Positions 1 to 62,346 of a stretch of 64,000 nt of DNA are shown one piece after another. The notes below the pieces were generated by a model that saw nothing but the letters and a program-made list of their open reading frames with translations, searched no databases and was not told the origin of the DNA. Position numbers and translations under genes: made by a program. Position 1 is the stretch's first letter. The number at the start of each line of letters is the position of its first letter. Source of the stretch: Candidatus Fraserbacteria bacterium (GTDB lineage Bacteria; Bipolaricaulota; Bipolaricaulia; RBG-16-55-9; DRXL01); assembly GCA_037440025.1 (NCBI GenBank), contig JBBIUX010000006.1:11296-75295 (forward strand), read 5' to 3'.

Positions 1-1199
1 ACGGGACAAGCTGGGCTGACGTGGATATCGAGCAATTCAAAGAACTCGCCGAGGCCGAACTCTTTACAGAGATCAAACGAACTCTCTCCCGGCTCTATCG
101 AGTACCGTCTGAGCGCGTCTTCGATGTCTACTACAACGAGAGTTGGCTCTATGAGAGTCGAGAGTCTAGGAGTCCGGAGTCTCAAGCTCTAGACTCTGAG
201 GGCTTGGTCTCTGTGACCAGCAAGACGCTCTTGCAATGGTTGCGCGAGCTGGGCTTGGCGTATGAAAAAGACGGCGCGATCTGGCTCAAGGTGACGGCAC
301 TAGGACGCCCGCAAGACAGGGTGCTGGTACGCAGTCAAACCGGCGAGCCGACCTACAGACTTCCCGACATGGCCTATCACGCGAACAAACTCCTGCGCGG
401 CTTCGATGTGATTGTGGACATCTTCGGGGCAGACCATCAAGAGACCTCTCAGGACGTCGTAGCGGCGGTGCGGGCGCTCTATGACCAGGGCAAGCTCCCC
501 CCAGAATGCACCCCCGACAAAATTCGTGTGCTCATCCATCAGTGGGTCAATCTCTTGCGTGGGGGCCAGCCAGTGAAAATGTCCAAGCGCATGGCCACCT
601 TCGTGACCATAGACGAGCTGATTGACGAGATCAAGCAAACGGTTGAACTGGATGAAAAGTCAGAAAAGTCAGACGAATTGAGAGAGGACTTTGCCGTCAA
701 CGTCGTGCGCTATTTTATTCTGATGCGCAGCCCCGACTCCCACGTCAATTTTGATCTGGACTTGGCTAAGAAACAGTCTAAAGACAACCCGGTCTATTAT
801 GTGATGTACGCGTACACACGGATTGGGAGCATCCTGGAGAAGTCTGGAGTCCAGAGTCTGGAGTCTGGGAAGTCAGAAGACTCTAGACTCCCAGACTCCT
901 CAGACTCCAGACTCCAACTCGACTTGCTGTGCGAGCCGGCCGAGTTGAAGCTGATCAAGAAGCTCGACGAATTTGAGCAGGCCGTTCGCGAGGCGACGGA
1001 GCATCTTGCCCCGCACTTTTTGGCAGTGTACGTGCACGAGCTGGCCGGGATCTTTCACGACTTTTACGAGAAGCATCGCGTGATAGACGAAACACATCCC
1101 GAACTGATGCGAGCACGGCTGGCGTTGGTGCGCGCTGTGCAGATCGTCTTGGGGCGCGCGTTCGACCTGTTGGGATTACAAGCGCCGGTGAGAATGTAA
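1..1199 (+). CDS. argS: Arginyl-tRNA synthetase, C-terminal ~390 aa (5' end lies outside window)
   Basis: Reading frame open to position 1; class-I aaRS 'VKMSKR' motif and DALR-type anticodon-binding C-terminus; two in-frame low-complexity inserts (ESRESRSPES..., SGVQSLESGKSEDSRLPDSSDSRL). Confidence 0.8.
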   Translation, partial: GTSWADVDIEQFKELAEAELFTEIKRTLSRLYRVPSERVFDVYYNESWLYESRESRSPESQALDSEGLVSVTSKTLLQWLRELGLAYEKDGAIWLKVTALGRPQDRVLVRSQTGEPTYRLPDMAYHANKLLRGFDVIVDIFGADHQETSQDVVAAVRALYDQGKLPPECTPDKIRVLIHQWVNLLRGGQPVKMSKRMATFVTIDELIDEIKQTVELDEKSEKSDELREDFAVNVVRYFILMRSPDSHVNFDLDLAKKQSKDNPVYYVMYAYTRIGSILEKSGVQSLESGKSEDSRLPDSSDSRLQLDLLCEPAELKLIKKLDEFEQAVREATEHLAPHFLAVYVHELAGIFHDFYEKHRVIDETHPELMRARLALVRAVQIVLGRAFDLLGLQAPVRM

Positions 1200-5661: not shown

Positions 5662-5740
5662 GGACCTAACCCCAACCCCTTCCCTAAAGGGAAGGGGCAA
5701 ACTCCCCTCCCGCTTTAGGGGAGGGGCCTGGGGGAGAGGT
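5661..5740. repeat. REP-like double-hairpin repeat, family A (CTAACCCC-CCCTTCCCTAAAGGGAAGGGG..CCCCTCCCNCTTTAGGGGAGGGG..GGGGAGAGGT)
   Basis: Two adjacent perfect palindromes plus a GGGGAGAGGT tail that supplies the SD for tal; copies at 6412, 8258 (reverse) and 55889. Confidence 0.8.
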
Positions 5741-5748
5741 AAACGATC

Positions 5749-6393: not shown

Positions 6394-6845
6394 GCGTGAA
6401 GCCCCCATACTGGGACCTAACCCCCGCCCCCTTCCCTGAAGGGAAGGGGAGTTCCCCTCCCTCTTTAGGGGAGGGGGTAGGGGAGAGGTCAGACCTAGAT
6501 CAAGAGCGTCACCACTACGTCCAGGCGCTGGCGCGCGTCGTGGAGGCCCTGCCCAAAGTGTTCGCTCAGATACCAGAGGTCGAGCGCGTCTGGCTCTTTG
6601 GCTCGTATCTGCGCGGGCGACGCGATCTCTGCACCGATCTCGATCTGATAGTGGTGATGCACTCCAAGCACGATGTAGTGACGCGCACGGCTCACCTCTA
6701 TCACCGCTTGGCAGCGTTGCTTCCGTTGGAGGTGGACATAGATCTGGTGGCGTACACGCCGGAGGAGTTCGCCCGTGAGCGCGAGAGCGGATTTTTGAAA
6801 TGGGCCTTAGCCCAAGGGCAGATGCTCTATGAGAGAGCCGACTGA
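6390..6845 (+). CDS. Minimal nucleotidyltransferase (MNT-type antitoxin-like); true start probably downstream of the repeat
   Basis: [21 protein letters not shown] = GS..D.D nucleotidyltransferase motif; the first ~30 codons are a translated REP repeat. Confidence 0.55.
6412..6490. repeat. REP-like double-hairpin repeat, family A copy
   Basis: Same architecture as 5661-5740; overlaps annotated N-terminus of next ORF. Confidence 0.8.
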
Positions 6846-7278: not shown

Positions 7279-8215
7279 GACGCGCACCGCCTTCGGCGAG
7301 GCGCTCCTAGAGCTCGCAGCGAAAGATAGTGATATCGTCGCGCTGACAGCAGACCTGCCCGGCTCGACACGCTTGAGTTGGTTCAAAGAGAAGTTCCCTG
7401 AGAGATTTTTTGACTTCGGCGTCGCCGAAGCCAATATGATGAGCGCCGCCGCGGGGCTGGCCCTCTCGGGCAAAAAGCCCTTCGTCTCAACGTTTGCGAT
7501 CTTCGTCGAAAAGGCATTTGAGCAAATTCGCCAGACCATCGCGTATAACAAGCTGCCCGTCAAAATCGTCGCGACACACGGGGGAATCACGGTTGGTGAG
7601 GACGGCGCCTCCCACCAGACCGTCGAAGACATTGCAATTATGAGGGCATTGCCCAACATGACCGTGATCGTCCCGGCGGACTATTACGAGACCAAGAAAG
7701 TTATTTATGCTGTCTATAATCATCCGGGGCCGGTCTATGTGCGCTTGGCCCGCGCGGCCTTCCCCGTCGTCTTCGATGAGTCTGTGACGTTTGACATAGG
7801 TCAAGCGAAGCTTGTGCGCCCCGGCACGGACGTCACTATCTTTGCGTGCGGGCTGATGCTCTTCTATAGTCTTCAGGCTGCGGAGCTTCTTGCCCAAGAG
7901 AAGATCTCAGCCCAGGTCGTCAACGTTGCTACTGTGAAGCCGTTGGACGCGCGTGTGGTTGACTACGCGCGGGCGACGGGCTGCGCCGTCAGCGTCGAGG
8001 AGCACTCGGTGATCGGGGGACTGGGCGGGGCGCTGGCAGAAATTTTATCAGAGCAGGCCATCCCCTTGGTGCGCGTCGGGGTTCAAGACCGATTTGGGCA
8101 GTCGGGCAAGCCTGAACAGTTACTGGCGCACTACGGGCTGACGGCGGAAAGGATTGCTGAAGCGGCGCGAACGGTTAAGAAACCTCTCCCCCGGCCCCTC
8201 CCCGAAGCGTTTTGA
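7250..8215 (+). CDS. Transketolase C-terminal (pyrimidine-binding + C-terminal domain) subunit of a split transketolase
   Basis: [28 protein letters not shown]... typical Tkt pyr/C domains; no N-terminal subunit gene adjacent. Confidence 0.75.
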
Positions 8216-8329
8216 TGCCACCGCTTTCTGAAGAAGATGCTGCATCAAAACGCTTCGCCCTGAAGGGGGAGGGAAGTTCCCCCTTCCTCTTTAGGGAAGG
8301 GGGCATAGGGGGTTAGGTCGGGAACTTGC
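8190..8329. repeat. Composite repeat: inverted repeat GAAGCGTTTTGATGC/GCATCAAAACGCTTC followed by a family A double hairpin (reverse orientation)
   Basis: 15-nt arms at ~8205 and ~8241 straddle the tkt stop; family A copy 8258-8329. Confidence 0.7.
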
Positions 8330-18786: not shown

Positions 18787-18851
18787 GGGCTGGCTATAAA
18801 GAGCGCAGTGGGGAAGCCCTCGGAGCGCACGCTTCGGGGGCTTTTGGTTTT

Positions 18852-18920
18852 GAATCACGGAAGGCACGGAATCGCCACGGAGAGCACAGAAGAATGGTTC
18901 TCTCTGTGCCCTCCGTGATG
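18852..18920. repeat. CACGGAAG-type long hairpin repeat (family C)
   Basis: GAATCACGGAAGGCACGGAATCGCCACGG...CTGTGCCCTCCGTGATG imperfect inverted repeat; same family at 23487, 24298, 25286, 25923, 31209, 31616, 32321, 33231. Confidence 0.75.
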
Positions 18921-18984
18921 CAGAGCTTGCACGGGAAAGGGGGAGTAGGTAGGATAGCAAAGTGATTCTCTGGAGGCATTATAT

Positions 18985-21138: not shown

Positions 21139-23355
21139 ATGCGAGTGATAATTGTTGTTGGGGTGTTGCTAGTGGTCGGAATAGTTGCTGAGGCACAGAC
21201 GCTACGAGTGACCGTGCCGGTGGATCTTGTCAATTGTGTATCGGGAGTGCCGCTGGTCGCGGGCCCGGACGCGGGGAGCGCTGTGGGTCCCGGCGGCGCT
21301 TGCGTTGTCGCTTCGGGCACTTACCCTGTAGCAGTTACCATTACCGTGCCCGGATTGATTCTGATTTCCACAAACGGCGCCATGGCCACGACGATCGCTG
21401 GCCCAGTCACTATAACTGCTGCGGCCAACGGTGTCACCCTTGGTCGAGCAGGCCAAGGATTTATGATCACCGGGGGCCTGACCGTAGGCGCTAATCAGAA
21501 CATTACTGTTGAGGACAGCATCTTCACAGGAAGTGGAGGGCCGGGAGTGTTGGTCGGTGCTCCAGGGGCTGTCCGTAATCTACGTTTTTTGAATCTTCAA
21601 GTACGCGCTAACGGAGGCGGGGGGATCATCTTCACGGGAGGATCTGTCGACGATCTGCTCATCACCGGGAGCGTGATCGAGACCAACGGAGGCCCGGGTA
21701 TAGGTTTCGCTATTGGCGGAAGCGTTCGCAGCTTCAACCTCTCTAGCAACCGCATCATTGGCAATGCGATCGGAGGGATCATCTTCGTTGGCCCCACCAA
21801 CGATGTTGAAGATAGCGAATTTTCTAATCTTATTGTACAAGGCAATGCCGGTCCGGGATTGGCTCTTGCTAACACCGGGCGCGTCATGGGGGTGGTGGTC
21901 TCTGGCAGTAACATCTCCAGTAACACCGGCGACAACGTCGTCTTTGGGAACGGCTTGACCTCAGATGTGGTGTTCGAGAACAACACTATAGAAAACGCCG
22001 CCGCCAACGGCGTAAACTTTTCCAATACTGGTGCGGTGGAAGACTTTGTCTTCCGGAACAACACCATCCAACGCAACGGCTTTAACGGCGTCTTGTTCTT
22101 CAACACCGGCAGGGTAGATAGCATTCAGATCCTTGACAACCGTCTGCGCAATAACGGTTTCCATAATCTTTTTATTAATCATCTGGGGCCTCGTGATTTC
22201 TCGGTCGGGCGGTTGACGATGGAGGGCGGCTTCGTCGACCAAGCGGGCGACAACGGCATCCGTATTGTGACTCTGACCACCGACATTGTCTTCATCACCT
22301 TGACCAATGTTCAAATCAGCAAGAACGGGGGGATAGGGGTCTGCTTACGCACAAACGGGGGAGCTATCGCTGACATCAAGTTTGAAGGAGCAGTTATCAA
22401 AGAAAACCAAGGGGGAGCAGGCTTAACTCCCTGTGATACAGCAGCTGCGCCGATCGGCTCTGGAGCGGAATTGATCACGCTGACGGGGAACATCGGTCCG
22501 GCAGAAGTTACTGGAAGCACCTTTGCCAATAATGGCGGCTTCGGCCTGCGCTTGCAATCGTTGGGGGCCGGTGGCGCGATGGGCGACGTGGGGCCGGTGG
22601 CTGTGCGAAACAGCGCATTCGATCAGAACGGCACGCGGGCCCCGGCGGGCTTGGGCTCTGGGTTCACCGCTCGAGGCCGAGGCGTCCGCGACATCTCCAT
22701 CAACCCCACCACAGCTAATAATAACAACGATCACGGCGTAGATATTCAAGCGACCAGTGATATTAGCAATGTCTCCATTACTGGAGGCGAGTTCTCCAAT
22801 AATGACCGCAACGTAGACACGATTGGCGCGGGGATCAACATCAGCGCCACGCAACGCCTGAGCGGTGTGAAAGTGACAGGAGCCAAGCTGATGTCGAATT
22901 CCCAGGGGGCGCGTGTTCAGGCCGACCGAGCTTCGGATAATCACATCAACCAGTGCGAGATCTCTGGCAATAGACAAGCTGGAGTTGAGGCCTCGATCAC
23001 GTCGGGAGACGATGTGGATGCAACGAACAACTACTGGGGCAGCCCTTCCGGCCCCAGCGGGACCAACGGCGCTGTGGGGCAGGTCACGGCCAGTCCGTTC
23101 TTGAGCGCCCCGCCGGGCGGTCCCACGCCGCCTACACCACCGACGCCACCCACACCGCCAACTCCACCGACCCCGCCGACGCCACCGGCGGGAGGCTTTG
23201 CCGCCTGCGCCGCAGGCGCAGATAACAGAATTGACGATCTAGAAATGCTGGGCATTCTCGATGCATGGATCAAGGGGCAGAGCTATCAAGCCTGCGGGGT
23301 GCCCACGGATTTGGACGTCTTGCAGGCGTTGGATCGCTGGGCGCGGGGAGTGTAG
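21139..23355 (+). CDS. Secreted parallel beta-helix protein, paralogue of the 13282 gene, with (PTPPT)n linker and C-terminal dockerin-like module
   Basis: Long stretches collinear with the 13282 product (NNNDHG..EFSNNDRNVDTIG.GI.IS, NYWGSPSGP); PTPPTPPTPPTPPTPPTPP; ATG at 21139 with GAGGGGGG SD. Confidence 0.7.
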   Translation: MRVIIVVGVLLVVGIVAEAQTLRVTVPVDLVNCVSGVPLVAGPDAGSAVGPGGACVVASGTYPVAVTITVPGLILISTNGAMATTIAGPVTITAAANGVTLGRAGQGFMITGGLTVGANQNITVEDSIFTGSGGPGVLVGAPGAVRNLRFLNLQVRANGGGGIIFTGGSVDDLLITGSVIETNGGPGIGFAIGGSVRSFNLSSNRIIGNAIGGIIFVGPTNDVEDSEFSNLIVQGNAGPGLALANTGRVMGVVVSGSNISSNTGDNVVFGNGLTSDVVFENNTIENAAANGVNFSNTGAVEDFVFRNNTIQRNGFNGVLFFNTGRVDSIQILDNRLRNNGFHNLFINHLGPRDFSVGRLTMEGGFVDQAGDNGIRIVTLTTDIVFITLTNVQISKNGGIGVCLRTNGGAIADIKFEGAVIKENQGGAGLTPCDTAAAPIGSGAELITLTGNIGPAEVTGSTFANNGGFGLRLQSLGAGGAMGDVGPVAVRNSAFDQNGTRAPAGLGSGFTARGRGVRDISINPTTANNNNDHGVDIQATSDISNVSITGGEFSNNDRNVDTIGAGINISATQRLSGVKVTGAKLMSNSQGARVQADRASDNHINQCEISGNRQAGVEASITSGDDVDATNNYWGSPSGPSGTNGAVGQVTASPFLSAPPGGPTPPTPPTPPTPPTPPTPPTPPAGGFAACAAGADNRIDDLEMLGILDAWIKGQSYQACGVPTDLDVLQALDRWARGV

Positions 23356-23483
23356 GCCCTCACCCCGCCCTGCGGGCACCCCGAGACGTTTTGGTGCAGC
23401 ATCTTTCCGAGAAAGCGGTCGCACCAAAACGTCTCGCCCTCTCCCGTAGTTGACCTACGGGAGAGGGGTTGGGGGTGAGGGCC
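23355..23483. repeat. Nested palindromic repeat, family B (GGCCCTCACCCC....GGGGGTGAGGGCC with inner GAGACGTTTTGGTGCAG/TCGCACCAAAACGTCTC)
   Basis: Outer and inner inverted repeats read directly; related copies at 33163, 62278 and in-frame in recG. Confidence 0.75.
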
Positions 23484-23486
23484 TCT

Positions 23487-23573
23487 GAATCACGGAAGGC
23501 GCGGAATCGCCACGGAGAGCACGGAAGATTTTTTCTGTGTCTTCCGTGGCCCGTTCGGTGTCCTCCGTGATTC
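23487..23573. repeat. Family C CACGGAAG hairpin repeat, copy with promoter tail
   Basis: ~135 bp near-identical to 31209-31338. Confidence 0.8.
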
Positions 23574-24285: not shown

Positions 24286-24297
24286 CGTTTGAAAGTA

Positions 24298-24393
24298 GAA
24301 TCACGGAAGGCGCGGAAATCGCCACGGGGGACACGGAAACGGCAGGTGTTTTCTGTGCCTTCCGTGGCTCTTTCTTCTGTGGGCTCCGTGGTT
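24298..24393. repeat. Family C hairpin repeat
   Basis: GAATCACGGAAGGCGCGGAAATCGCCACGG...GGCTCCGTGGTTC. Confidence 0.75.
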
Positions 24394-24486
24394 CAGAAGC
24401 GTTAGGGGATAGGTGAGGGGTGGCAAAGCGAACCTTCATCGGGTATAACTGAAATACCATGACCGCTATGCTTTTAGGAGAACTTA

Positions 24487-24759
24487 GTGCGCATTCGCAA
24501 GCTCCTGTGGAGCCAAGCTATCATCGAGAAATTGCACACAAAGCATCGAGTCTCGCCCAGCGAGGTCAAGGCCGTCTGTGCTGGCGCACATATAACATGG
24601 GCCGGACGACGTGGCACGTATTATCTGCTGGGACAGACCAAGAGCGGACGCTATCTCTTCGTCGTTGTGGCCCATAAAGGCTCCGGGGTGTTCAAAGTCA
24701 TCACTGCCCGAGATATGACCGAAGCCGAACGCCAACGCTTCTCGAGGAGGAGACCATGA
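24487..24759 (+). CDS. brnT: BrnT-family (DUF497) ribonuclease toxin
   Basis: 90 aa, GTG start; ...ETKH.V...EVE.VF...RYLTAFF/ RYLFVVVAHKG pattern of BrnT; overlaps antitoxin start. Confidence 0.65.
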   Translation: MRIRKLLWSQAIIEKLHTKHRVSPSEVKAVCAGAHITWAGRRGTYYLLGQTKSGRYLFVVVAHKGSGVFKVITARDMTEAERQRFSRRRP

Positions 24760-25103
24760 AACTCCCGAAATTTCGCTCCGAACAAGAAGAAGCAGCCTTC
24801 TGGGAGACCCACGACCTCAGCGATTATCTGGACGAGCTTGAGGAGATACAATTCGAGTGGGCTCCGGACGAAGACACCTGCCCCAGCTGCGGCGCGGCCA
24901 TGAAGCCTGAACAGTTCGAAGTCGAACTGCTGGAGGGGCTCTACCTGCGGAATCTGCGGCGATATCGCTGCCCGGTGTGCCAGACGGTCCAACTCACGCC
25001 GGAGTCGTTGGTGCACATCAACCAGACAGACAGCTTGATTAGGCGATTCGGATTAGCAGGGCTTCTGTTGCAAAAGGAGTTAGTAAGCGAGTTCAGAACC
25101 TAG
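24756..25103 (+). CDS. brnA: BrnA-like antitoxin with C-terminal zinc ribbon
   Basis: EEAAFWETHDLSDYLDE BrnA-type motif; CPSCG...CPVC. Confidence 0.6.
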   Translation: MKLPKFRSEQEEAAFWETHDLSDYLDELEEIQFEWAPDEDTCPSCGAAMKPEQFEVELLEGLYLRNLRRYRCPVCQTVQLTPESLVHINQTDSLIRRFGLAGLLLQKELVSEFRT

Positions 25104-25126: not shown

Positions 25127-25349
25127 GCGCCCCTGGGGGGAGACCCCCGGGGGCGGTGGTTTTTAACCTAACCCCCAAGCCCCCTTCCCAGCGAAGAGTC
25201 AAGAGTCTAGGAGTCGAGGGTCGAGAGACTCCAGACCCCCAGACTCTGGACCTTTCTGTAAGGGAGGGGCTAGGGGAGAGGTCTTGAACCACGGCAAGCA
25301 CGGAACCTGCCACGGGGAATACGGAAGACGGCGGGTCTTTTTCCGTGCC
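25127..25349. repeat. Composite intergenic repeat block: terminator-like GC hairpin+T-tract (family D), GAGTC/GACTC-rich repeat (family E), truncated family C hairpin
   Basis: GCGCCCCTGGGGGGAGACCCCCGGGGGCGGTGGTTTTTAACC; AGAGTCTAGGAGTCGAGGGTCGAGAGACTCCAGACCCCCAGACTCTGGACC; GAACCACGGCAAGCACGGAA... Confidence 0.75.
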
Positions 25350-25367
25350 TTAACGACACAGACGACT

Positions 25368-25478
25368 TTATAAATGCGGTGTCCGCCGCTCCGCCAGGTA
25401 GTCGCGGATCAGAGGAAGCACCGTAAATCCCAAAGCTGTTAGCCCAATGACCAGGAGAATAATGTACAGCGGTAACAT
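25368..25478 (-). CDS. Tiny single-TM peptide (36 aa, MLPLYIILLVIGLTALGFTVLPLIRDYLAERRTPHL), second gene of the small-membrane-peptide cassette
   Basis: Not in ORF track (<60 aa); ATG 2 nt after stop of upstream gene; paralogue of 31509-31616 product. Confidence 0.5.
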   Translation of the reverse strand: MLPLYIILLVIGLTALGFTVLPLIRDYLAERRTPHL

Positions 25479-25480
25479 AC

Positions 25481-25702
25481 TCACCCCCTCGCGATCTTCC
25501 TTAACCGTAAATAGCCGAAAATATAGATCAGCAACCAGATAATTGATCCCAGGACCGAGACCCCCAAGTGAAATCCTTCCGGGTTAAGAAACTGACCGAA
25601 GACCAGCGCGCCAATGGCAATATTCGCCACATCAAACAGCTTCTCGATAACAACGCGCTCTGCTTCGTGCTCTCCCGATAGAGGCTTTTCCTTTTTACTC
25701 AT
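25481..25702 (-). CDS. Small two-TM membrane protein (73 aa), paralogue of 31339-31509 product
   Basis: LFDVANIAIGALVFGQF...LGSIIWLLIYIFGY aligns with LMDVANYAAGALLIGQI...LGGAIWLCFYAIEE. Confidence 0.55.
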   Translation of the reverse strand: MSKKEKPLSGEHEAERVVIEKLFDVANIAIGALVFGQFLNPEGFHLGVSVLGSIIWLLIYIFGYLRLRKIARG

Positions 25703-25789: not shown

Positions 25790-26013
25790 TCCCTTCGCGG
25801 TGGTTTTTGACCTAACCCCCCAGCCACCTTCCCAGCGAAGAGTCTAGGAGTCGAGGGTCGAGAGACTCCAGACCCCCAGACTCTGGACCTTTCTGTAAGG
25901 GAGGGGCTAGGGGAGAGGTCTGCATCACGGAAGGCGCGGAATCGCCACGGGGGACACGGAAACGGCAGGTGTTTTCAGTGCCTTCCGTGGCTCTTTCTGT
26001 GGGCTCCGTGGTT
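25790..26013. repeat. Composite repeat block: partial family D, family E (GAGTC-rich), family C hairpin
   Basis: Near-duplicate of the 25127-25349 block in the opposite arrangement around the small membrane gene. Confidence 0.75.
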
Positions 26014-26727: not shown

Positions 26728-26830
26728 AGCGCCCCTGGGGGAGCGATCCCCGGGGGCGGTGGTTTTTGACCTAACCCCCGACTACTACAAAGGTGGGGAG
26801 GGGCTAGGGGAGAGGTCTCGCCGCGTGCAA
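26728..26830. repeat. Family D terminator-like hairpin + GGGGCTAGGGGAGAGGTC tail
   Basis: GAGCGCCCCTGGGGGAGCGATCCCCGGGGGCGGTGGTTTTTGACCTAACCCCC... Confidence 0.7.
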
Positions 26831-26881: not shown

Positions 26882-27445
26882 ATGGCCACCAAAGCCCAGA
26901 TCAAATTCACCTACGAAGACTACAAGAGCCTGCCTTACTCAGAGCGCGAGCGCTTTGAGCTCCTGGAAGGAGAGCTGATCCCTATGCCGCCGTCCCCAGG
27001 ATTCGCCCATCAATCGGTCTCGTTGGAGCTGGTTACCCGACTCCATCTCTTTGTGCAGGAGAGAACATTAGGGACGGTCCTTGAGGCCCCCTTTGACGTA
27101 GTGCTGGGAGAGCCCGGGGAAGAGCAGGTCGTGCAGCCGGACATTCTCTTCGTCTCCAAGGAGCGACGCCGTATCATCCAGGAAGACGAAATTCGCGGAG
27201 CGCCTGACCTCGTCGTCGAAATTCTCTCCCCTTCTACGAAAGAGAAGGATCGCACCTACAAGCGCCGTCTCTATGCCAAGTATGGCGTCCGGGAATACTG
27301 GATCGCCGATCCCGACAGTCAGACCATCGAGGTACTCACGCTGGGCAAGCGGGGCTATGAACGGGCCGGGCTCTATCACAAAAACGAGATATTGGAGTCG
27401 CCGCTCTTGTCGGGTCTGCGAATTCCCCTGAGCGAAGTCTTATAG
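26882..27445 (+). CDS. Uma2-family (DUF820) restriction-endonuclease-fold protein, paralogue 1
   Basis: MATKAQIKFTYEDYKSLPY...QPDILFVS...GAPDLVVEILSPST (PD-(D/E)xK-like core). Confidence 0.75.
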   Translation: MATKAQIKFTYEDYKSLPYSERERFELLEGELIPMPPSPGFAHQSVSLELVTRLHLFVQERTLGTVLEAPFDVVLGEPGEEQVVQPDILFVSKERRRIIQEDEIRGAPDLVVEILSPSTKEKDRTYKRRLYAKYGVREYWIADPDSQTIEVLTLGKRGYERAGLYHKNEILESPLLSGLRIPLSEVL

Positions 27446-31170: not shown

Positions 31171-31295
31171 GCGCCCTTGGGGGGAGACCCCCGGGGGCGT
31201 TGGTTTTTGAATCACGGAAGGCGCGGAATCGCACGGAAAGCACGGAAGGTTTTTTTCTGTGTCTTCTGTGGCCTGTTCGGTGTCCTCCGTGATTC
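31171..31295. repeat. Family D terminator-like hairpin + family C hairpin (second copy of the promoter-bearing unit)
   Basis: GCGCCCTTGGGGGGAGACCCCCGGGGGCGTTGGTTTTTGAATCACGGAAGG... Confidence 0.8.
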
Positions 31296-31300
31296 AAAGT

Positions 31301-31329
31301 TTGACCTGCAGAAGTGCCCAGGCTATACT
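31301..31329 (+). promoter_or_regulatory. TTGACC-17-TATACT promoter (identical to 23579-23607); near-leaderless start
   Basis: ATG at 31339 lies only 9 nt after the -10 hexamer. Confidence 0.6.
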
Positions 31330-31338
31330 GAAAGGGCA

Positions 31339-31509: not shown

Positions 31510-31616
31510 TGGATACAGTTTTGTTGCTGTTGCTCATCATCCTCGTGGGGGGACTAGCCTTCACGCTGCCCACGATCATTGGGGACTGGCGGCGGGCGCG
31601 CTCCGGGCATAAGTAG
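31509..31616 (+). CDS. Tiny single-TM peptide (35 aa), cassette gene 2
   Basis: MDTVLLLLLIILVGGLAFTLPTIIGDWRRARSGHK; start overlaps upstream stop (TAATG); paralogue of 25368-25478(-). Confidence 0.5.
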   Translation: MDTVLLLLLIILVGGLAFTLPTIIGDWRRARSGHK

Positions 31617-31701
31617 AATCACGGAAGGCGCGGAATCGCCACGGAGAGCACGGAAGTTTTTTCTGTGCCTTCCGTGGTTCTTTCTGTGGACTCCGTGATT
31701 C
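31616..31701. repeat. Family C hairpin repeat
   Basis: GAATCACGGAAGGCGCGGAATCGCCACGGAGAGCACGGAAG-TTTTTTCTGTGCCTTCCGTGG... Confidence 0.8.
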
Positions 31702-31707
31702 CAACGC

Positions 31708-31751
31708 TTGTACAGTGAGGGGGAATGGAGTACCATAACAAGGTGATCTCT
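31708..31751 (+). promoter_or_regulatory. Conserved Uma2 leader: TTGTAC-17-TACCAT promoter-like element + AAGGTGA SD
   Basis: Identical leader at 33303-33346; related TAGGATAAC-AAGGTGATC leaders at 26858 and 33918. Confidence 0.45.
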
Positions 31752-32312
31752 ATGGCCACCAAAGCCCAGATCAAGTTTACTTACGAAGATTACAAAAGCC
31801 TGCCCTACGTGGAGCGCGAGCGCTTTGAGCTCCTGGAAGGAGAGTTGATTATGGCCCCGTCGCCCAATACAGAGCATCAAGAAATTGCTCGTGAACTCTT
31901 CCGCCCTCTGGGGGAGCATATCCGTAGCCATAACCTAGGGAAGATCTATTTTGCTCCTTTAGATGTCGTGCTAGGGGAACCCGGCAACGAACAGGTCGTC
32001 CAACCTGATATTCTCTTTGTCTCTCAAGCCCGTCGCACGATTATCCGCGATGATGAGATCCGCGGAGCCCCAGACTTAGTCGTGGAGATCATCTCGCTCT
32101 CGACGGAAGAGAAGGACCGGGTTTTCAAGCGCCGCCTCTATGCCAAGTATGGCGTCCAGGAATACTGGATCACCGATCCCGACAGTCAGACCATCGAGGT
32201 ACTCACGCTGGGCAAGCGGGGCTACGAGCGGGCGGGACTGTATACGAAGAGCGAGACGCTGAAATCGCCGCTCTTGCCGGGCTTGCACATCCCCCTTGAT
32301 GAGATCTTCTAG
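31752..32312 (+). CDS. Uma2-family endonuclease-fold protein, paralogue 2
   Basis: Same N- and C-terminal sequences as paralogue 1 (~95% nt identity in 3' third), divergent middle. Confidence 0.75.
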   Translation: MATKAQIKFTYEDYKSLPYVERERFELLEGELIMAPSPNTEHQEIARELFRPLGEHIRSHNLGKIYFAPLDVVLGEPGNEQVVQPDILFVSQARRTIIRDDEIRGAPDLVVEIISLSTEEKDRVFKRRLYAKYGVQEYWITDPDSQTIEVLTLGKRGYERAGLYTKSETLKSPLLPGLHIPLDEIF

Positions 32313-32320
32313 AGGCCTTT

Positions 32321-32393
32321 GAATCACGGAAGGCACGGAATCGCACGGAGAGCACGGAAGAACGGCGGGTCTTTTCAGTGTCTTCCGTGGCTC
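32321..32393. repeat. Family C hairpin repeat
   Basis: GAATCACGGAAGGCACGGAATCGCACGGAGAGCACGGAAG...TCTTCCGTGGCTC. Confidence 0.75.
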
Positions 32394-33110: not shown

Positions 33111-33295
33111 GGCCGCCCTTGGGGGGAGACCCCCGGGGGCGTTTGTTTTTGGGGGCCCTCACCCTGGCCCCTCACCCCTCTGGCTCCCCTCTCCCTCGGA
33201 GGGGAGAGGGGACGGGGGTGAGGGCCTGTGCATCACGGAACGCACGGAAGACTTTCTCTGTGCCTCCCGTGGCTTTTTCAGTGCGTTCTGTGATT
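33111..33295. repeat. Composite repeat block: family D hairpin, family B palindrome, family C hairpin
   Basis: GGCCGCCCTTGGGGGGAGACCCCCGGGGGCGTTTGTTTTTGGGGGCCCTCACCC...GGGGGTGAGGGCCTGTGCATCACGGAACGCACGGAAG... Confidence 0.75.
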
Positions 33296-33346
33296 CCAAC
33301 GCTTGTACAGTGAGGGGGAATGGAGTACCATAACAAGGTGATCTCT

Positions 33347-33940
33347 ATGGCCATCAAAGCCCAGATCAAATTCACCTACGAAGATTACAAGAGCCTGCCC
33401 GAATCTGAGACCGAGCGCTATGAGCTTGTAGAGGGGGAGTTGGTGATGGTTCCTTCACCAGATACAGAACATCAAGATATTGTCGGTAACCTCTTTCGGT
33501 TGCTCAGTGACCACGTCCATAAGCACCGGTTGGGCAAGGTCTACCTCGCTCCCCTGGACGTCGTGCTGGGGGAGCGAGATGAGGAGGAGGTTGTCCAACC
33601 GGATATTCTGTACGTCTCCTACCAGCGTCGGGGTATCATCGCCCGCGAGGAGATCCGTGGTGCTCCAGACCTGATCGTCGAGGTGCTCTCCCCCTCCACA
33701 GCTCAACGTGACCGCACCTTGAAAAAGAAGTTGTACGCACGTCACGGGGTGCAGGAGTATTGGATTGTCGACCCGAAAGCACAAACGCTCGAGGTCTATG
33801 AGTGGCGACCGAAGGGCTTCGAGCGTGTTGGGCTCTATGGTGCTGAGCAAACGCTTACTTCTCGTCTCTTGCCAACCTTACACATTCCCCTGAGAGAAAT
33901 TTTCAATGACCGAGACGGACAAGGTAGGATAACAAGGTGA
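33347..33940 (+). CDS. Uma2-family endonuclease-fold protein, paralogue 3 (3' end reads through the conserved leader of paralogue 4)
   Basis: MAIKAQIKFTYEDYKSLPE...; C-terminus ...DRDGQGRITR encoded by the GGTAGGATAACAAGGTGA leader. Confidence 0.7.
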   Translation: MAIKAQIKFTYEDYKSLPESETERYELVEGELVMVPSPDTEHQDIVGNLFRLLSDHVHKHRLGKVYLAPLDVVLGERDEEEVVQPDILYVSYQRRGIIAREEIRGAPDLIVEVLSPSTAQRDRTLKKKLYARHGVQEYWIVDPKAQTLEVYEWRPKGFERVGLYGAEQTLTSRLLPTLHIPLREIFNDRDGQGRITR

Positions 33941-33945
33941 TCTCT

Positions 33946-34509
33946 ATGGCCACCAAAGCCCAGATTAAATTTACTTACGAAGACTACAAGAGCCTGCCCT
34001 ACGTGGAGCGCCAACGCTTCGAGCTACTCGAAGGAGAATTGATCCCTATGACGCCATCACCCGGTGAGGCCCATCAGGCCACTTCCATAGCCCTGTCGTC
34101 CTTGCTGTACCGATTTGTTCGGGAGCATCAGGTGGGCCGCGTCTACGAAGCCCCATTTGATGTCGTCTTAGGAGAACCAGGAGAGGAGCAGGTCGTCCAG
34201 CCCGATATTCTCTTTGTCTCTCAAGTCCGTCGCACGATTATCCGCGATGATGAGATCCGCGGAGCCCCAGACTTAGTCGTGGAGATCCTCTCACCCTCGA
34301 CCGAAGAGAAGGACCGGGTTTTCAAGCGCCGCCTCTATGCTAAGTATGGGGTAACAGAGTATTGGATTGTGGACCCCGACGCTCGAACTATAGAGGTGCT
34401 GGCGCTGGGCAAGCGGGGCTACGAGCGGGCTAGGCTCTATAAAAAAAGTGAGACGCTGGAATCGCCGCTCTTGCCGGGGTTACACATCGCACTCAATGAA
34501 GTCTTTTGA
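33946..34509 (+). CDS. Uma2-family endonuclease-fold protein, paralogue 4
   Basis: MATKAQIKFTYEDYKSLPYVERQRFELLEGELIPM...; stop overlaps recG start region. Confidence 0.75.
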   Translation: MATKAQIKFTYEDYKSLPYVERQRFELLEGELIPMTPSPGEAHQATSIALSSLLYRFVREHQVGRVYEAPFDVVLGEPGEEQVVQPDILFVSQVRRTIIRDDEIRGAPDLVVEILSPSTEEKDRVFKRRLYAKYGVTEYWIVDPDARTIEVLALGKRGYERARLYKKSETLESPLLPGLHIALNEVF

Positions 34510-36874
34510 TTCTCGGCTCTCCCAACTGCGCAAAGTTTTGCAACTTGAGCAGCGCACCAGCTACCAAGACACCGCTGTCATCGGGGGCTTGGAGGGTTTC
34601 GTCGAGACGTGCGCACAAGAGCTGATGGCTACTCAGACTGAAGCCGTCGTTGCCATCGCACAGCGCTTGAAGAAACTCGTGCGCGGGTACACTATCAAAC
34701 TTCCAGAGGCCCGTCGCGCCGTTGTGCGCGAACTTGAAGATTGCTTGCGGGCTTTGGAGGCCCTCACCCCCAGCCCATCGTCATCCTCACCTCTAGCTCC
34801 TCTCCCCTCCGAGGGAGAAGGGAAAAGGCCAGGTGAGGGTCTACAAGCCTCAGTACGCTTCGCCAAGGGCGTCGGCCCCGAACGGGAGAAGTTACTCAAT
34901 AAGCTTGGCATTCAGACTATTGAAGACCTGTTGACGTACTTCCCGCGCCGCATCGAAGATCGCCGCGAGAGCAAAAAGATCATGCAGCTGCGACACAGCG
35001 ATAAGGTCACCGTCAAAGGGCGCGTGCGGGCCGTGGATGTCATCAGACCCAGAAAAAATCTAGAGATCATCAAAGCGGCCGTTCAGGATAATACGGGGAT
35101 TCTCTATGCCGTCTGGTTCAACCAGCCGTGGCTCAAAAATCAATTAGTGCAGGGCGAGCTGATCGCGCTCTACGGGGCTGTCGAGAGCACGCACGGCCAG
35201 ATGCAGATGAGCAACCCCGTCTGGGAGCCGGCTGGGAAAAATTTTCTCACGGGCCGGCTGGTGCCGGTTTATCCTGCGACGGAAAGGCTCACGCCCACGG
35301 TGCTCTATAGGTTAATTCAGAACAATCTCTCGCGCTCTCGCGATGCGCTCACCGAGGTACTGCCCGAGGACTTGCGGGCACGCCGGGGACTGCTGCCGCG
35401 CGCAGAAGCTTTTGAGAAGATGCACTTCCCCCAAACGGTTGACGAGTACCAACAAGCCCACGATACATTGGCGTTCGAAGAGCTCTTTCTCTTTCAATGG
35501 GGGGTTGCTGTAGAAAAGCAGAAGATCGGCGAGCGCCCTGGACGAAGCTTACACATCTCAAACGAAAGGCTGGACGAGTTTTTCGGAGTGCTGCCCTTCA
35601 AGCTGACGCGAGCGCAAGAGCGAGCGATTGCCGAGATCCGCGCCGATCTGGCGGCTCCCCAACCGATGAATCGGCTCTTGCAAGGGGACGTCGGCTCCGG
35701 CAAGACGGTTGTGGCGACGGCGGCATGCTTGATCGCTATGGAGTCGGACTACCAGGCGGCGCTCATGGCGCCGACAGAGATATTGGCGCAGCAGCACTTT
35801 CGTAACATTACAGAGTTGCTCGCGCGGCTGAGCAAGCCCCCAAGAGTCGTGCTGCTCATCGGGAGCCTGCCGGAGCGCGATAAGGCGTCTCTACGCCGGA
35901 CGATCCAGCAGGGCGACATTGACTTAGTGATCGGCACGCACGCGCTCATCCAAGATGAAGTGCGCTTTCAGCGCTTGGGACTGGCCGTGATTGACGAGCA
36001 ACACCGTTTCGGGGTCGTTCAGCGAGCCCAGCTCGAACAGAAGGGCGCAAATGTAGATATTTTAGTCATGAGCGCCACCCCCATCCCTCGAACGATTACT
36101 CTGACGCTTTACGGGCAATTTGAGGTCTCTCTTTTGGACGAACTGCCCTTTGAGAAGCAGATCCAGACATTCTGGATTTCCGAGGAGAAGCGCGACCAGG
36201 TCTATGATTTTGTCGTGCAAGAGCTGAAGACGGGCGCTCAGGCGTATATTGTCTTCCCCTTGATCGAAGAGTCTGAAGAGCTGGACTTGAAAGCCGCGAC
36301 GCAGGCGAAAGAAGAATTAGAACAGACGTTTTTGAAAGAGTTTCGTGTGGGGTTGCTGCACGGGCGCATGAGCGAGAGCGAGAAGCAAGCCGTCATGAAG
36401 CGGCTCGTCCATAAGGAGCTGGACGTTCTCGTGAGCACGACCATTATTGAAGTCGGAATCGATGTGCCCAGCGCGACTGTTATGATTATTGAGCACGCTG
36501 ATAGATTTGGGCTGTCGCAGCTCCATCAGTTGCGAGGGCGGATAGGGCGGGCCGGAGATAAGTCCTATTGTTTTGCCATCGCGACCCCGCGCAGCGAAGA
36601 GGGCCAACGACGGCTGCACGTCTTTCAGGGCACACTGGACGGCTTTCAGATCGCCGAAGAAGACTTAAAGATTCGCGGCCCAGGCGATATGCTCGGCGTG
36701 GCGCAGCACGGGCTCGACAGCACCTTCAAGGTTGCAGACCTGATAGCAGATATAGATTTGATGAAAGCCGCGCGCGAGGAAGCTTTTCAGTTGGTGCAAC
36801 AGAAGCCGGACGACGCTCTTACAGCCGAGTTTCGGCGTCGCTTCGGGGACAAGTTCGAGCTGGCAAGAGTATAA
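34496..36874 (+). CDS. recG: ATP-dependent DNA helicase RecG
   Basis: Wedge domain + SF2 helicase motifs (GDVGSGKT, DEQHRFGV, MSATPIPRT, QLRGRIGR); carries an in-frame family-B-like palindromic insert near the N-terminus. Confidence 0.9.
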   Translation: MKSFDSRLSQLRKVLQLEQRTSYQDTAVIGGLEGFVETCAQELMATQTEAVVAIAQRLKKLVRGYTIKLPEARRAVVRELEDCLRALEALTPSPSSSSPLAPLPSEGEGKRPGEGLQASVRFAKGVGPEREKLLNKLGIQTIEDLLTYFPRRIEDRRESKKIMQLRHSDKVTVKGRVRAVDVIRPRKNLEIIKAAVQDNTGILYAVWFNQPWLKNQLVQGELIALYGAVESTHGQMQMSNPVWEPAGKNFLTGRLVPVYPATERLTPTVLYRLIQNNLSRSRDALTEVLPEDLRARRGLLPRAEAFEKMHFPQTVDEYQQAHDTLAFEELFLFQWGVAVEKQKIGERPGRSLHISNERLDEFFGVLPFKLTRAQERAIAEIRADLAAPQPMNRLLQGDVGSGKTVVATAACLIAMESDYQAALMAPTEILAQQHFRNITELLARLSKPPRVVLLIGSLPERDKASLRRTIQQGDIDLVIGTHALIQDEVRFQRLGLAVIDEQHRFGVVQRAQLEQKGANVDILVMSATPIPRTITLTLYGQFEVSLLDELPFEKQIQTFWISEEKRDQVYDFVVQELKTGAQAYIVFPLIEESEELDLKAATQAKEELEQTFLKEFRVGLLHGRMSESEKQAVMKRLVHKELDVLVSTTIIEVGIDVPSATVMIIEHADRFGLSQLHQLRGRIGRAGDKSYCFAIATPRSEEGQRRLHVFQGTLDGFQIAEEDLKIRGPGDMLGVAQHGLDSTFKVADLIADIDLMKAAREEAFQLVQQKPDDALTAEFRRRFGDKFELARV

Positions 36875-62259: not shown

Positions 62260-62277
62260 AGTACTTCTCTCCTCCTA

Positions 62278-62346
62278 GGGCCCTCACCCGGCCCTTCGGG
62301 CCACCCTCTCCCGTCTGAACGGGAGAGGGGCTGGGGGTGAGGGCCT
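62278..62346. repeat. Family B nested palindrome (GGGCCCTCACCCGGCCC..CCCTCTCCCGTCTGAACGGGAGAGGGG..GGGGGTGAGGGCC)
   Basis: Inverted repeat read directly; between divergent argF and ilvE. Confidence 0.75.

What the first reader, a model, noticed from the sequence alone, without database searches (positions are those of the whole stretch)
140..930. GAGTC/GACTC-rich dispersed repeat inserted in-frame twice within essential argS
ArgRS carries two low-complexity inserts, ESRESRSPESQALDSEG (nt ~150-200) and SGVQSLESGKSEDSRLPDSSDSRLQLD (nt ~838-925). Their DNA (GAGAGTCGAGAGTCTAGGAGTCCGGAGTCTCAAGCTCTAGACTCTGAG; GTCTGGAGTCCAGAGTCTGGAGTCTGG...GACTCCAGACTCC) shares 10-14-mers (AGAGTCTAGGAGTC, GACTCCAGAC) with the intergenic repeats at 25181-25262 and 25811-25905. 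So a mobile simple-sequence element has colonised an aminoacyl-tRNA synthetase while keeping the reading frame open, presumably in surface loops. GAGTC is also a GANTC-class methylation/restriction site, so dense clusters could matter epigenetically.
Basis: partly seen in the sequence, partly recalled or inferred. Interest (0 to 1): 0.6.

Follow-up and report, generated by a model that had tools for sequence, protein, structure and literature searches.

The report
Seven-base repeat arrays inside argS
Two disordered surface loops of an essential enzyme gene (arginyl-tRNA synthetase) in an uncultured Bipolaricaulota bacterium are encoded by arrays of a 7-base GAGTC repeat, a local case of a common bacterial simple repeat that also sits in-frame in housekeeping genes of other phyla.

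Summary
Window 3-1199 is the 3' part of argS from a Candidatus Bipolaricaulota MAG. Nt 153-200 and 840-923 are in-frame arrays of GAGTC units followed by inverted GACTC units. They align colinearly with two intergenic copies at about 25194-25250 and 25838-25887.

Both segments lie in loops that vary in length and sequence among Bipolaricaulota ArgRS orthologues. Both loops are low-confidence in an AlphaFold model and are short in outgroups.

This is repeat DNA tolerated in-frame in permissive loops, but I found no sign of a transposon: no target-site duplication and no transposase. GAGTCNN arrays turned out to occur in many phyla. In the 120 loci I fetched, period 7 dominates the tandem repeats and the motifs are very diverse. 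At least eight of those arrays sit in-frame in genes such as PheT, MutL, PolA, MutS2 and CarB.

Site 2 holds a resident array also present in relatives. Its inverted arm expanded in this lineage. The site 1 array replaced a different palindromic element that the two closest relatives still carry.

Best model: arrays arise and change by slippage and fold-back copying, are copied between loci, and are then filtered by selection for an open frame. A GANTC methylation role has no support. The case is ordinary to moderately interesting.

The parts
3..1199 (+). argS, the 3' part: 398 codons plus the stop. It corresponds to residues 208-605 of the 605-aa ArgRS P0001. The KMSKR motif is intact.
153..200 (+). 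Insert 1 (site 1, P0001 residues 258-273). Sequence: GAGAGTC GAGAGTC TAGGAGTC CGGAGTC TCAAGC TCTAGACTC TGAG. It is colinear with the intergenic copies. Only the reading frame in use is free of stops. It lies in the loop between the two halves of the catalytic domain.
   Evidence: pLDDT below 50 at 269-274; this stretch is a gap in C. jejuni ArgRS 3fnr
654..673 (+). In-frame 9-nt tandem duplication, GAAAAGTCA x2.2, encoding EKSEKS (residues 425-430). It lies in a third variable loop just after the KMSK region.
840..875 (+). Insert 2, left arm: five heptad-type units, AAGTCT GGAGTCCA GAGTCTG GAGTCTGG GAAGTCA. It begins in the native Glu-Lys-Ser codons. The relative L002 has the same number of units at this site.
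876..923 (+). Insert 2, the GAA loop plus the right arm: GACTCTA GACTCCCA GACTCCTCA GACTCCA GACTCCA ACTCGAC. It pairs with the left arm. Its start matches the right arm of the intergenic copies. L002 has only one unit here.
   Evidence: (z = -4.3); pLDDT below 50 at 492-509
25194..25250 (+). Intergenic copy 1 of the GAGTC/GACTC inverted array. It is nested in the loop of a larger palindromic element (GACCTAACCCCC ... GGGGAGGGGCTAGGGGAGAGGTC, about 25166-25290), downstream of a BrnT/CopG toxin-antitoxin pair and a terminator-like hairpin.
25838..25887 (+). Intergenic copy 2. It is one unit shorter, is otherwise identical to copy 1, and is nested in the same outer palindrome (about 25809-25921).

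Best explanation
**What it is.** The two ArgRS segments are intragenic members of the common bacterial class of heptanucleotide tandem-repeat arrays. Here the core is GAGTC, and the arrays are in inverted (GAGTC ... GACTC) arrangement. They are not pieces of a transposon.

**How it most likely works (inferred).**
- Arrays are created and remodelled locally by replication slippage in steps of about 7 nt.
- Fold-back (hairpin) template switching builds the inverted arm.
- Arrays at different loci of one genome serve as templates for each other, by ectopic gene conversion or microhomology-mediated template switching. This would spread genome-specific variants.

**Why argS tolerates it.** In an essential gene, only variants that keep the frame, lack stops and fall in structurally permissive loops survive. 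The result is two disordered Ser/Glu/Asp/Arg-rich loops with no evident function of their own.

**History of the two sites.**
- Site 2 holds an old resident array whose inverted arm grew by about 39 nt in this lineage.
- The site 1 array is a recent copy of the same element seen between genes. It replaced a different palindromic element that the closest relatives still carry.
For: **Shown**
- Period-7 arrays at both sites and between genes.
- The four copies are colinear and share irregular spacers. Two 20-21-nt patterns occur 3 times each with none in shuffled controls, while the first pattern has only 25 hits in the whole JGI metagenome collection.
- The loops are hypervariable in about 45 Bipolaricaulota ArgRS and short in outgroups.
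- The loops have low pLDDT and are gaps against a solved ArgRS.
- Other orthologues carry GAGTC-type arrays at the same sites, with different unit number, period (7, 8 or 9 nt) and core (L002, L126, L154, L155, L156).
- L001 and L002 share five left units and the centre GAAGTCAGA(A)GACT, but differ in the right arm (5-6 units against 1).
- Site 2 differs even between proteins of one 90% cluster.
- The sister lineages P0002 and P0003 carry a different 45-nt hairpin element at site 1.
- GAGTCNN arrays occur in cyanobacteria, Acidobacteriota, Planctomycetota, Gemmatimonadota, Chloroflexota, Lysobacterales and others.
- In those loci, 304 period-7 arrays compare with 1-42 for any other period, and 168 of them have non-GAGTC motifs.
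- At least 8 arrays lie in-frame inside or between Pfam domains: PheT, MutL, PolA, MutS2, CarB, M16 peptidase, CobN and a WD40 protein.
- The literature describes heptamers as the over-represented long simple-sequence repeat in prokaryotes, attributed to polymerase slippage (PMC4679880, PMC4692102).

**Inferred:** slippage, fold-back and copying between loci as the mechanism.
Against: - No direct evidence of slippage: no population length polymorphism was seen for this MAG, because the P0001 cluster has a single member.
- 41% of the sampled arrays keep intact GAGTC cores while their spacers vary. That could instead mean constraint on the core.
- Insert 1 is not itself a significant hairpin.
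- Copying between loci is also what a mobile element would produce.
- Only 64 kb of the source genome was seen, so the copy number and the full-length form of the element are unknown.
- The NJ tree used to polarise events has no support values.
Confidence: 0.6

Rival explanations
1. A non-autonomous mobile element (MITE-like or Rickettsia-palindromic-element-like), moved by a transposase encoded elsewhere in the genome, inserted twice into argS and at least twice between genes. Only in-frame insertions survived.
For: - The window holds four colinear copies, at genic and intergenic sites.
- Insert 1 is absent from the two closest relatives, which carry a different element there.
- The intergenic copies are nested in other palindromes, as MITEs and BIMEs often are.
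- In relatives, clearly dispersed palindromic elements do occupy different loops of ArgRS. Element B is at site 1 in L002 and L003 but at site 2 in L125. Element C/D is found at four different sites.
Against: - Inspection showed no target-site duplication and no defined ends.
- Copy lengths are 48, 84 and about 57 nt, and the arms are unequal.
- The site 2 array is shared by position with relatives and differs by whole repeat units.
- The same kind of array occurs in many phyla with arbitrary spacers and many other 7-nt motifs. That fits a replication process better than one transposon family.
- I noticed no transposase, though most window ORFs were not scanned.
Confidence: 0.22
2. The inserts are selected at the protein level: acidic, Ser-rich flexible loops that tune ArgRS, for example its tRNA binding, solubility or interactions. 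The repeat structure of the DNA would be incidental.
For: - The segments are retained in an essential, otherwise well-conserved enzyme.
- Both are hydrophilic and fall in loops.
- The loop at site 1 has the same length (17 codons) as the unrelated element in the sister lineages.
Against: - The peptides are not conserved, even among close relatives or within 90% clusters.
- The same DNA motif is read in different frames at the two sites.
- Many orthologues have short loops with no insert (P0005, P0008, P0016 and P0026 at site 1).
- The similarity is at the DNA level and extends to non-coding copies.
Confidence: 0.08
3. Dense GAGTC clusters serve as methylation or restriction-related (GANTC or GAGTC) epigenetic or protein-binding sites.
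For: - The GAGTC core is kept while spacers vary in 48 of 116 sampled arrays.
- GAGTC is somewhat under-represented outside the arrays.
Against: - The depletion is mild (observed/expected 0.80 under a third-order Markov model, rank 94 of 1024), and GAATC and GATTC are not depleted.
- Genomes with GAGTC arrays have more period-7 arrays with unrelated motifs (168 of 304).
- No methyltransferase or nickase was examined or found.
- Methylation cannot be read from sequence.
Confidence: 0.05
4. An assembly or binning artefact: repeat-induced misassembly of a metagenome-assembled genome created the inserts.
For: - The source is a MAG.
- Short repeats can confuse assemblers.
- The second assembly that carries P0001 (Logan, SRR11582161) may come from the same reads.
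Against: - The reading frame is intact through both inserts, and the rest of the model is confident (pLDDT 87).
- Analogous arrays and elements sit at the same two loops in independent assemblies from other samples.
Confidence: 0.02

Closest known systems
Heptanucleotide tandem repeats of prokaryotes: cyanobacterial STRR sequences; the 'long SSRs' of Mrazek et al. 2007; GGGNATC repeats of Xanthomonas and Nostoc (PMC4692102); TAACTGA repeats of Beggiatoaceae (PMC4679880)
   Same: - Head-to-tail arrays of 7-nt units, a few copies long.
- Scattered over the genome and mostly intergenic.
- Found in many phyla, with many different motifs.
- Attributed to polymerase slippage.
- A minority are intragenic: 32% of the Nostoc G-rich repeats according to PMC4692102.
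   Different: - Here the core is GAGTC, with variable 2-4-nt spacers.
- The array is paired with an inverted GACTC array, so it can form a hairpin.
- Two arrays lie in-frame in one essential gene.
- The papers I could read do not mention GAGTC-core arrays.
Rickettsia palindromic elements (RPEs; Ogata et al. 2000, as reviewed in PMC10969869)
   Same: - Short palindromic repeat DNA found both between genes and in-frame inside unrelated housekeeping genes.
- Located where the protein fold tolerates it.
- Several families occur per genome.
   Different: - RPEs are about 100-150 bp, and each family encodes a conserved peptide.
- They are restricted to Rickettsia.
- The GAGTC arrays are 48-84 nt, built of 7-nt units, read in different frames, and of a kind found across phyla.
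- The other Bipolaricaulota elements seen in relatives (elements B and C/D) resemble RPEs more closely than the GAGTC arrays do.
MITEs and REP/BIME elements (Correia, ERIC, Nezha, REP with RAYT; PMC10969869, PMC3733652)
   Same: - Hairpin-forming and small.
- Nested or mosaic arrangement with other palindromes downstream of genes.
- Occasional in-frame fusions with ORFs.
   Different: - No terminal inverted repeats with defined ends and no target-site duplications.
- I saw no GTAG or CGTC tag by eye.
- No partner transposase was seen.
- The internal structure is a tandem array.
In-frame intragenic tandem repeats (mini- or microsatellite expansion in protein linkers)
   Same: - Hypervariable length at a fixed position in a protein.
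- Units that are multiples of 3 appear in some orthologues: the 9-nt AAGTCTATG-type units in L155 and the GACTCTNNN units in L126.
   Different: In the window the units are 7-8 nt, so the frame is kept only by the total length. The same sequence also exists outside genes.

Membership tests
Heptanucleotide tandem repeat arrays (STRR / long SSR class) | Head-to-tail copies of a 7-nt unit, three or more copies | tested here: met
   TRF finds period 7 at 841-868 (4.0 copies, 80% matches), 878-920 (5.9 copies, 84%) and 25194-25227 (4.7 copies). Insert 1 has four GAGTC units at 7-8-nt spacing but falls below the TRF score.
Heptanucleotide tandem repeat arrays (STRR / long SSR class) | Same kind of array found dispersed in many genomes and phyla | tested here: met
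   The genome-contig scan gave at least 120 loci in more than 10 phyla. In those loci, 304 period-7 arrays compare with 1-42 for any other period.
Heptanucleotide tandem repeat arrays (STRR / long SSR class) | Copy number changes by whole units between related genomes (slippage behaviour) | tested here: inconclusive
   L001 and L002 differ by about five right-arm units at the same site, and orthologues differ in unit number and period. No within-population data exist for the source MAG.
Rickettsia palindromic elements (RPE) | About 100-150-bp element, each family encoding a conserved peptide | tested here: not met
   The inserts are 48 and 84 nt. The peptides differ between copies and between frames.
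Rickettsia palindromic elements (RPE) | Palindromic DNA inserted in-frame in housekeeping genes at structurally permissive positions, with intergenic copies of the same family | tested here: met
   Insert 2 folds with z = -4.3. The frame is open. The loops have low pLDDT. Intergenic copies exist.
Rickettsia palindromic elements (RPE) | Sequence similarity to the RPE-1 to RPE-10 consensus sequences | not tested
   No RPE sequences were available in the tools. The lineage (Bipolaricaulota) and the heptad structure make similarity unlikely.
MITE | Defined terminal inverted repeats flanked by a target-site duplication | tested here: not met
   I compared the junctions with orthologues that carry no GAGTC array at that site (L125 and L003 at site 1; L003, L004 and L127 at site 2) and found no duplication and no fixed ends.
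MITE | Related autonomous insertion sequence or transposase in the genome | not testable with these tools
   Only 64 kb plus 1.3 kb of the source genome is available. Only a few window ORFs were scanned against Pfam, and none of those was a transposase.
REP / BIME | 20-40-bp GC-rich palindrome with a GTAG or CGTC tag, associated with a RAYT transposase | tested here: not met
   Reading the sequences shows no such tag at either end of the arrays. No RAYT was seen.
Arginyl-tRNA synthetase (host gene) | Arg_tRNA_synt_N, tRNA-synt_1d and DALR_1 domains with the class I signature motifs | tested here: met
   The precomputed Pfam domains of P0001 include all three. DALR_1 scores E = 1.5e-30. IGHCR is at 129-133 and KMSKR at 399-403. 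The AlphaFold model has pLDDT 87. The best solved match is ArgRS 3fnr, E = 9e-56.

The most novel reading that the evidence does not exclude
Bipolaricaulota may carry a phylum-wide equivalent of the Rickettsia palindromic elements. At least five repeat families would be involved:
- GAGTC heptad hairpins.
- A 45-nt hairpin, 'element B'.
- An 87-nt hairpin, 'element C/D', whose stem shows compensatory changes.
- A CGAA/TTCG-rich family.
- The GGGTGAGGG/CCCTCTCCC family.

These families repeatedly replace one another in the same four loops of ArgRS and in other housekeeping genes (RecG in this window). They would spread without a transposase, by templated copying between hairpins. More broadly, a conserved 7-nt-step replication process would seed arrays inside essential genes across bacterial phyla.
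Probability: 0.25. Interest if true: 0.6.

Novelty: new member of a known kind. Interest (0 to 1): 0.4.

Why it matters
- It shows that 7-nt simple repeats, usually treated as intergenic curiosities, can live in-frame inside essential genes. They mark the loops of a protein that tolerate any sequence.
- For ArgRS it gives a natural map of four permissive insertion sites.
- For MAG work, it warns that length differences between orthologues in such loops come from repeat turnover, not from functional domains or misassembly. These loops could serve as fast strain markers.
[quoted passage not shown] It would also point to a common replication-based mechanism.

Tried and rejected
1. **Window-wide repeated 11-mers and 13-mers**, used to find other intragenic repeat copies, were mostly chance matches. 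The only useful lead was RecG 34756-34818.
2. **My crude ORF calls** were unreliable around the repeats, where spurious antisense ORFs appear. I did not use them for statistics.
3. **Core versus spacer decay in units flanking the arrays** was uninformative, because the arrays end abruptly.
4. **Restriction-type avoidance of GAGTC** showed only mild depletion, so I rejected it as a signal.
5. **Rfam** matched no family in the window.
6. **The metagenome scan for AGAGTCTAGGAGTCNNGRGTC** was meant to find more copies from the same lineage. None of its 25 hits looked like a copy from that lineage; all lay in heptad arrays on contigs of GC 0.40-0.64 that I did not classify. This showed that the 14-mer is not lineage-specific, although the full pattern is rare globally.
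7. **The peptide search for the element C/D family** failed. The first query was too short, and the concatenated query gave no hit at E <= 0.01. Proteome-wide spread of that element therefore remains untested.
8. **A nicking-enzyme (GAGTC) plus polymerase amplification idea**, recalled from in-vitro work, was dropped because most period-7 arrays in the same genomes have unrelated motifs.
9. **The hairpin reading of insert 1** was rejected (z = -0.17).
Full report
**What is there.** Window 3-1199(+) is the 3' part of argS. The translated fragment carries a DALR anticodon-binding domain (E = 1.5e-30). It is 100% identical to the 605-aa protein P0001. The full gene is on L001, which is identical to the window over their overlap.

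The nearest named relatives are Candidatus Bipolaricaulota / Acetothermia, at 73% identity to Acetithermum autotrophicum. The class I motifs are intact, with IGHCR at 129-133 and KMSKR at 399-403. An AlphaFold2 model built on 30 orthologues is confident, with mean pLDDT 87 and pTM 0.88.

**The observation.** GAGTC and GACTC together occur 98 times in the window, against 141 expected from base composition. Only four clusters of three or more sites exist: 155-196 (++++-), 847-914 (+++-----), 25196-25246 (+++--) and 25840-25883 (++--).

Each cluster is an array of GAGTC units spaced 7-8 nt apart, then a short spacer, then an array of GACTC units. TRF calls period 7 at 841-868, 878-920 and 25194-25227.

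- Insert 1 is nt 153-200 (48 nt, residues 258-273, ESRESRSPESQALDSE).
- Insert 2 is nt 840-923 (84 nt, residues 487-514, KSGVQSLESGKSEDSRLPDSSDSRLQLD).

The similarity between the copies inside and outside the gene holds up in a proper comparison:
- AGAGTCTAGGAGTCNNGRGTC occurs at 161, 25202 and 25839.
- GACTCYAGACYCCCAGACTC occurs at 879, 25227 and 25864.
- Dinucleotide-preserving shuffles gave no match for either pattern.
- All four copies align colinearly (A2).

The left arm of the intergenic element matches insert 1, and its right arm matches the start of the right arm of insert 2. Insert 2 is a strong hairpin as single-stranded DNA (-29.1 kcal/mol, z = -4.3). Insert 1 is not (z = -0.17). 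The two intergenic copies sit in the loop of a larger palindromic element (GACCTAACCCC ... GGGGAGGGGCTAGGGGAGAGGTC). That element also occurs without the GAGTC core at 5664-5742, 6414-6493, 26768-26818 and 55887-55975.

**Are the inserts lineage-specific, and where do they lie in the protein?** I aligned 30 ArgRS sequences (A1) and extracted the two regions from 47 homologues. Both sites are hypervariable in length and sequence within Bipolaricaulota and short in the outgroups (TA06, Ignavibacteria).

- At site 1 the baseline loop is about 16 residues (P0005, P0008, P0016, P0026), against 27 in the window protein.
- At site 2 the baseline is about 21 residues, against 36.

In the model, the only segments with pLDDT below 50 are 269-274 (site 1), 399-405 (the KMSK loop) and 492-509 (site 2). 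Against the solved C. jejuni ArgRS (3fnr), site 1 and a third variable loop are gaps.

**What the relatives show at the DNA level.** I fetched argS DNA from ten relatives and read the loops codon by codon.

*Site 2.* GAGTC-type arrays recur here in several orthologues:
- L002 has GAAATCA GAAGTCA GAAGTCA GAAGTTA GAAGTCA GA GACTTC.
- L155 has 9-nt units: AAGTCTATG AAGTCTATA GAGTCTCTA GAGTCTCTG GAGTCGTTA.
- L126 has GAGTC followed by five GACTCTNNN units.
- L156 has GACTC, GAGTC, GAGTC.

The arrays start in the native Glu/Asp-Lys-Ser codons (GA[GC]AA[GA]TC). L001 and L002 have the same five left units and the same centre, GAAGTCAGA(A)GACT. They differ in the right arm, with 5-6 units against 1 (+39 nt). 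The site 2 array is therefore resident and changes in place. Its inverted arm expanded in the window lineage, and the added sequence resembles the right arm of the intergenic copies. Site 2 also differs among proteins of one 90% identity cluster (P0016, P0181, P0182).

*Site 1.* L154 also has four GAGTC units here. In an NJ tree (no support values), P0001 is sister to P0002, with P0003 next. Both of those carry a different 45-nt hairpin, element B (CAGGCTTCGCCTGGAC.GTAC.C.GTGCCGCACAGCGGCACGATG). It occupies exactly the 17 codons where P0001 has the GAGTC array. Insert 1 is thus best read as a recent replacement of element B by a copy of the element seen between genes.

*Other repeat families use the same loops.*
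- Element B is at site 1 in L002, L003 and P0017, with a diverged version in L126 (P0024), but at site 2 in L125.
- An 87-nt hairpin element (C/D, with peptides such as ..VRLRRPQAGEGEQ..) occurs at an N-terminal site (P0027; partial in P0015, P0030 and P0032), at site 1 (P0009), at site 2 (P0031, P0047) and at a third loop (P0013).
- These non-heptad elements are strongly palindromic (z = -2.7 to -7.0). Direct GAGTC arrays are not (z = -0.4 to -1.0).

The same thing happens in another gene of the window. RecG (34496-36871; Pfam) has an in-frame palindromic segment of a different family at 34756-34840, just before its wedge domain. Most relatives have a shorter linker there (A3).

**How general is the GAGTC array?** I scanned one genome per GTDB species for four GAGTC units at 7-9-nt spacing.

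The hits come from cyanobacteria (Anabaena, Nostoc, Microcystis, Okeania, Moorena), Acidobacteriota, Gemmatimonadota, Planctomycetota, Chloroflexota, Lysobacterales/Xanthomonas, Bacteroidota, Verrucomicrobiota, Actinomycetota, one Bipolaricaulota MAG and a Thermoplasmata archaeon. About a dozen show the same inverted GAGTC ... GACTC arrangement.

In these 854 kb, TRF finds 304 period-7 arrays of three or more copies, against 1-42 for any other period. Of those, 168 have motifs unrelated to GAGTC. The periodicity is therefore general and the GAGTC core is not special. This fits published accounts that heptamers are the over-represented long simple-sequence repeat of prokaryotes and are attributed to polymerase slippage (PMC4679880, PMC4692102). 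I found no paper on repeats in Bipolaricaulota.

Of the 126 arrays, 34 lie in frames that stay open for at least 60 codons on both sides. Pfam confirms eight that sit inside or between domains of conserved proteins: PheT, MutL, PolA, MutS2, CarB, an M16 peptidase, CobN and a WD40 protein. A ninth open frame, L092, matched only a 4Fe-4S domain. In-frame heptad arrays in housekeeping genes are thus not peculiar to this MAG.

All were in heptad arrays on contigs of GC 0.40-0.64, and none looked like a copy from the source lineage. The pattern is globally rare, which makes three copies in 64 kb meaningful as within-genome copying. It is still not a lineage marker.

**Mechanism.**

*Shown:*
- The 7-nt periodicity.
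- The inverted arrangement.
- Colinearity of the four copies.
- Residence of the site 2 array across relatives, with differences of whole units.
- Replacement at site 1.
- Location in low-confidence loops.
- Use of a stop-free frame. Insert 1 is open in only one of its three forward frames.

*Inferred:*
- Arrays arise and change by slippage.
- The inverted arm is built by fold-back template switching.
- Arrays at different loci template each other, which would explain why genome-specific spacer irregularities (TAG, CCA) are shared by genic and intergenic copies.
- Selection on an essential gene removes every variant that breaks the frame or falls outside a permissive loop.

The main rival is a transposase-driven MITE- or RPE-like element. 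It is not excluded, because only 64 kb of the genome is visible. However, I found no target-site duplication, no fixed ends and no transposase.

A protein-level function is unlikely. The peptides are not conserved, and the same DNA is read in different frames. The methylation idea has no support. GAGTC outside the arrays has observed/expected 0.80 under a third-order Markov model, ranking 94 of 1024 pentamers, and GAATC and GATTC are at 0.97. No Rfam family matches anywhere in the window.

**Verdict.** It is wrong or unproven that this is a lineage-specific mobile element with an epigenetic role.

It is a new member of a known kind: heptanucleotide tandem arrays, behaving like Rickettsia palindromic elements when they lie inside genes. 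The wider patterns deserve a systematic survey. Several repeat families swap places in the same ArgRS loops across Bipolaricaulota, and heptad arrays sit inside housekeeping genes in many phyla. The single finding itself rates moderate interest.

Noticed in passing
window 34756-34840 (+), inside recG (34496-36871): An in-frame palindromic repeat of a different family (GAGGCCCTCACCCCCAGCCC ... CTCTCCCCTCCGAGGGAGAAGGG ... GGTGAGGGTCT). It is related to the intergenic copies at 62260-62348, 23354-23483 and 33183-33227. It encodes the linker ALTPSPSSSSPLAPLPSEGEGKRPGEG just before the RecG wedge domain. Most relatives have a shorter linker there.
   Followed up: partly
window 654-673 (+), inside argS: A 9-nt in-frame tandem duplication, GAAAAGTCA x2.2 (EKSEKS), in a third variable loop of ArgRS. 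Relatives differ in length here, and P0013 carries an element C/D insertion at this loop.
   Followed up: partly
window 5664-5742, 6414-6493, 8173-8320, 25166-25290, 25809-25921, 26768-26818, 55887-55975: A family of modular intergenic palindromes with the ends GACCTAACCCC ... GGGGAGAGGTC and variable interiors (CCCCTTCCC/GGGAAGGGG stems, or the GAGTC core). They often follow a terminator-like hairpin (GCGCCCCTGGGGGGAGACCCCCGGGGGCGGTGGTTTTT).
   Followed up: partly
window 18847-18924, 23482-23560, 24293-24394, 25917-26000, 31204-31337, 31611-31700, 32316-32391: A second abundant intergenic family, built of CACGGAA units followed by inverted TTCCGTG units. A related sequence may be read in-frame at site 2 of the ArgRS orthologue P0006 (..VCGFRAFELSNSRT..).
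   Followed up: partly
L127:10145-10231 and L128:2154-2255 (argS of relatives): An 87-nt hairpin element inserted in-frame at different ArgRS loops in different MAGs. Its 11-bp central stem differs between the two copies by three compensatory double changes (CTTGCCCGGCC/GGCCGGGCAAG against CTTCGCCAGCC/GGCTGGCGAAG), which suggests selection on the hairpin. A copy of its terminal motif CAGACTTCGTCTGGAC is intergenic at L127:4343.
   Followed up: partly
L013, L037, L080, L108, L111, L063, L075, L053 (other phyla): GAGTCNN heptad arrays lie in-frame in PheT (Uhrbacteria), MutL (Pyrinomonadaceae), PolA (Spirulina), MutS2 (Anabaena), CarB (a gammaproteobacterium), an M16 peptidase (Nostoc), CobN (Acidobacteria) and a WD40 protein (a cyanobacterium). 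They give peptides such as ESGVRSQ and SRESRV.
   Followed up: yes
L005-L124 (854 kb from 120 loci): Period 7 dominates the tandem repeats: 304 arrays of three or more copies, against 1-42 for every other period. The motifs are very diverse. Arrays of different heptamers often lie side by side.
   Followed up: partly
L155:6093-6123: In a relative, four GACTC units lie in the 48-nt spacer directly after the argS stop codon and before ftsY. This is in addition to the 9-nt-period GAGTC array at site 2 of the same gene.
   Followed up: no
L003:1493-1591 (site 2 of the sister orthologue P0002): Site 2 holds a segment with inverted heptad-like arms of another core: AGTGATG AGTGATC ... CACTAAT CACTATG. 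The whole 99-nt segment does not fold better than shuffled controls (z = +0.52). So the same loop in sister lineages carries heptad-like repeats with different motifs.
   Followed up: partly
window 26882-27445, 31725-32312, 33320-33940, about 33946-34450: Four paralogous genes (76-84% DNA identity over parts), each preceded by the intergenic repeat modules. Pfam confirms three of them as Uma2-family putative endonucleases. The fourth is inferred from DNA similarity only.
   Followed up: partly
window 24487-25103 and 25368-25702: A BrnT-like gene (below the Pfam gathering cut-off, 30.9 against 34.5 bits) and a CopG-antitoxin gene lie just upstream of intergenic copy 1. The two GAGTC intergenic copies, in the same orientation, bracket two small predicted membrane-protein genes on the minus strand.
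   Followed up: no
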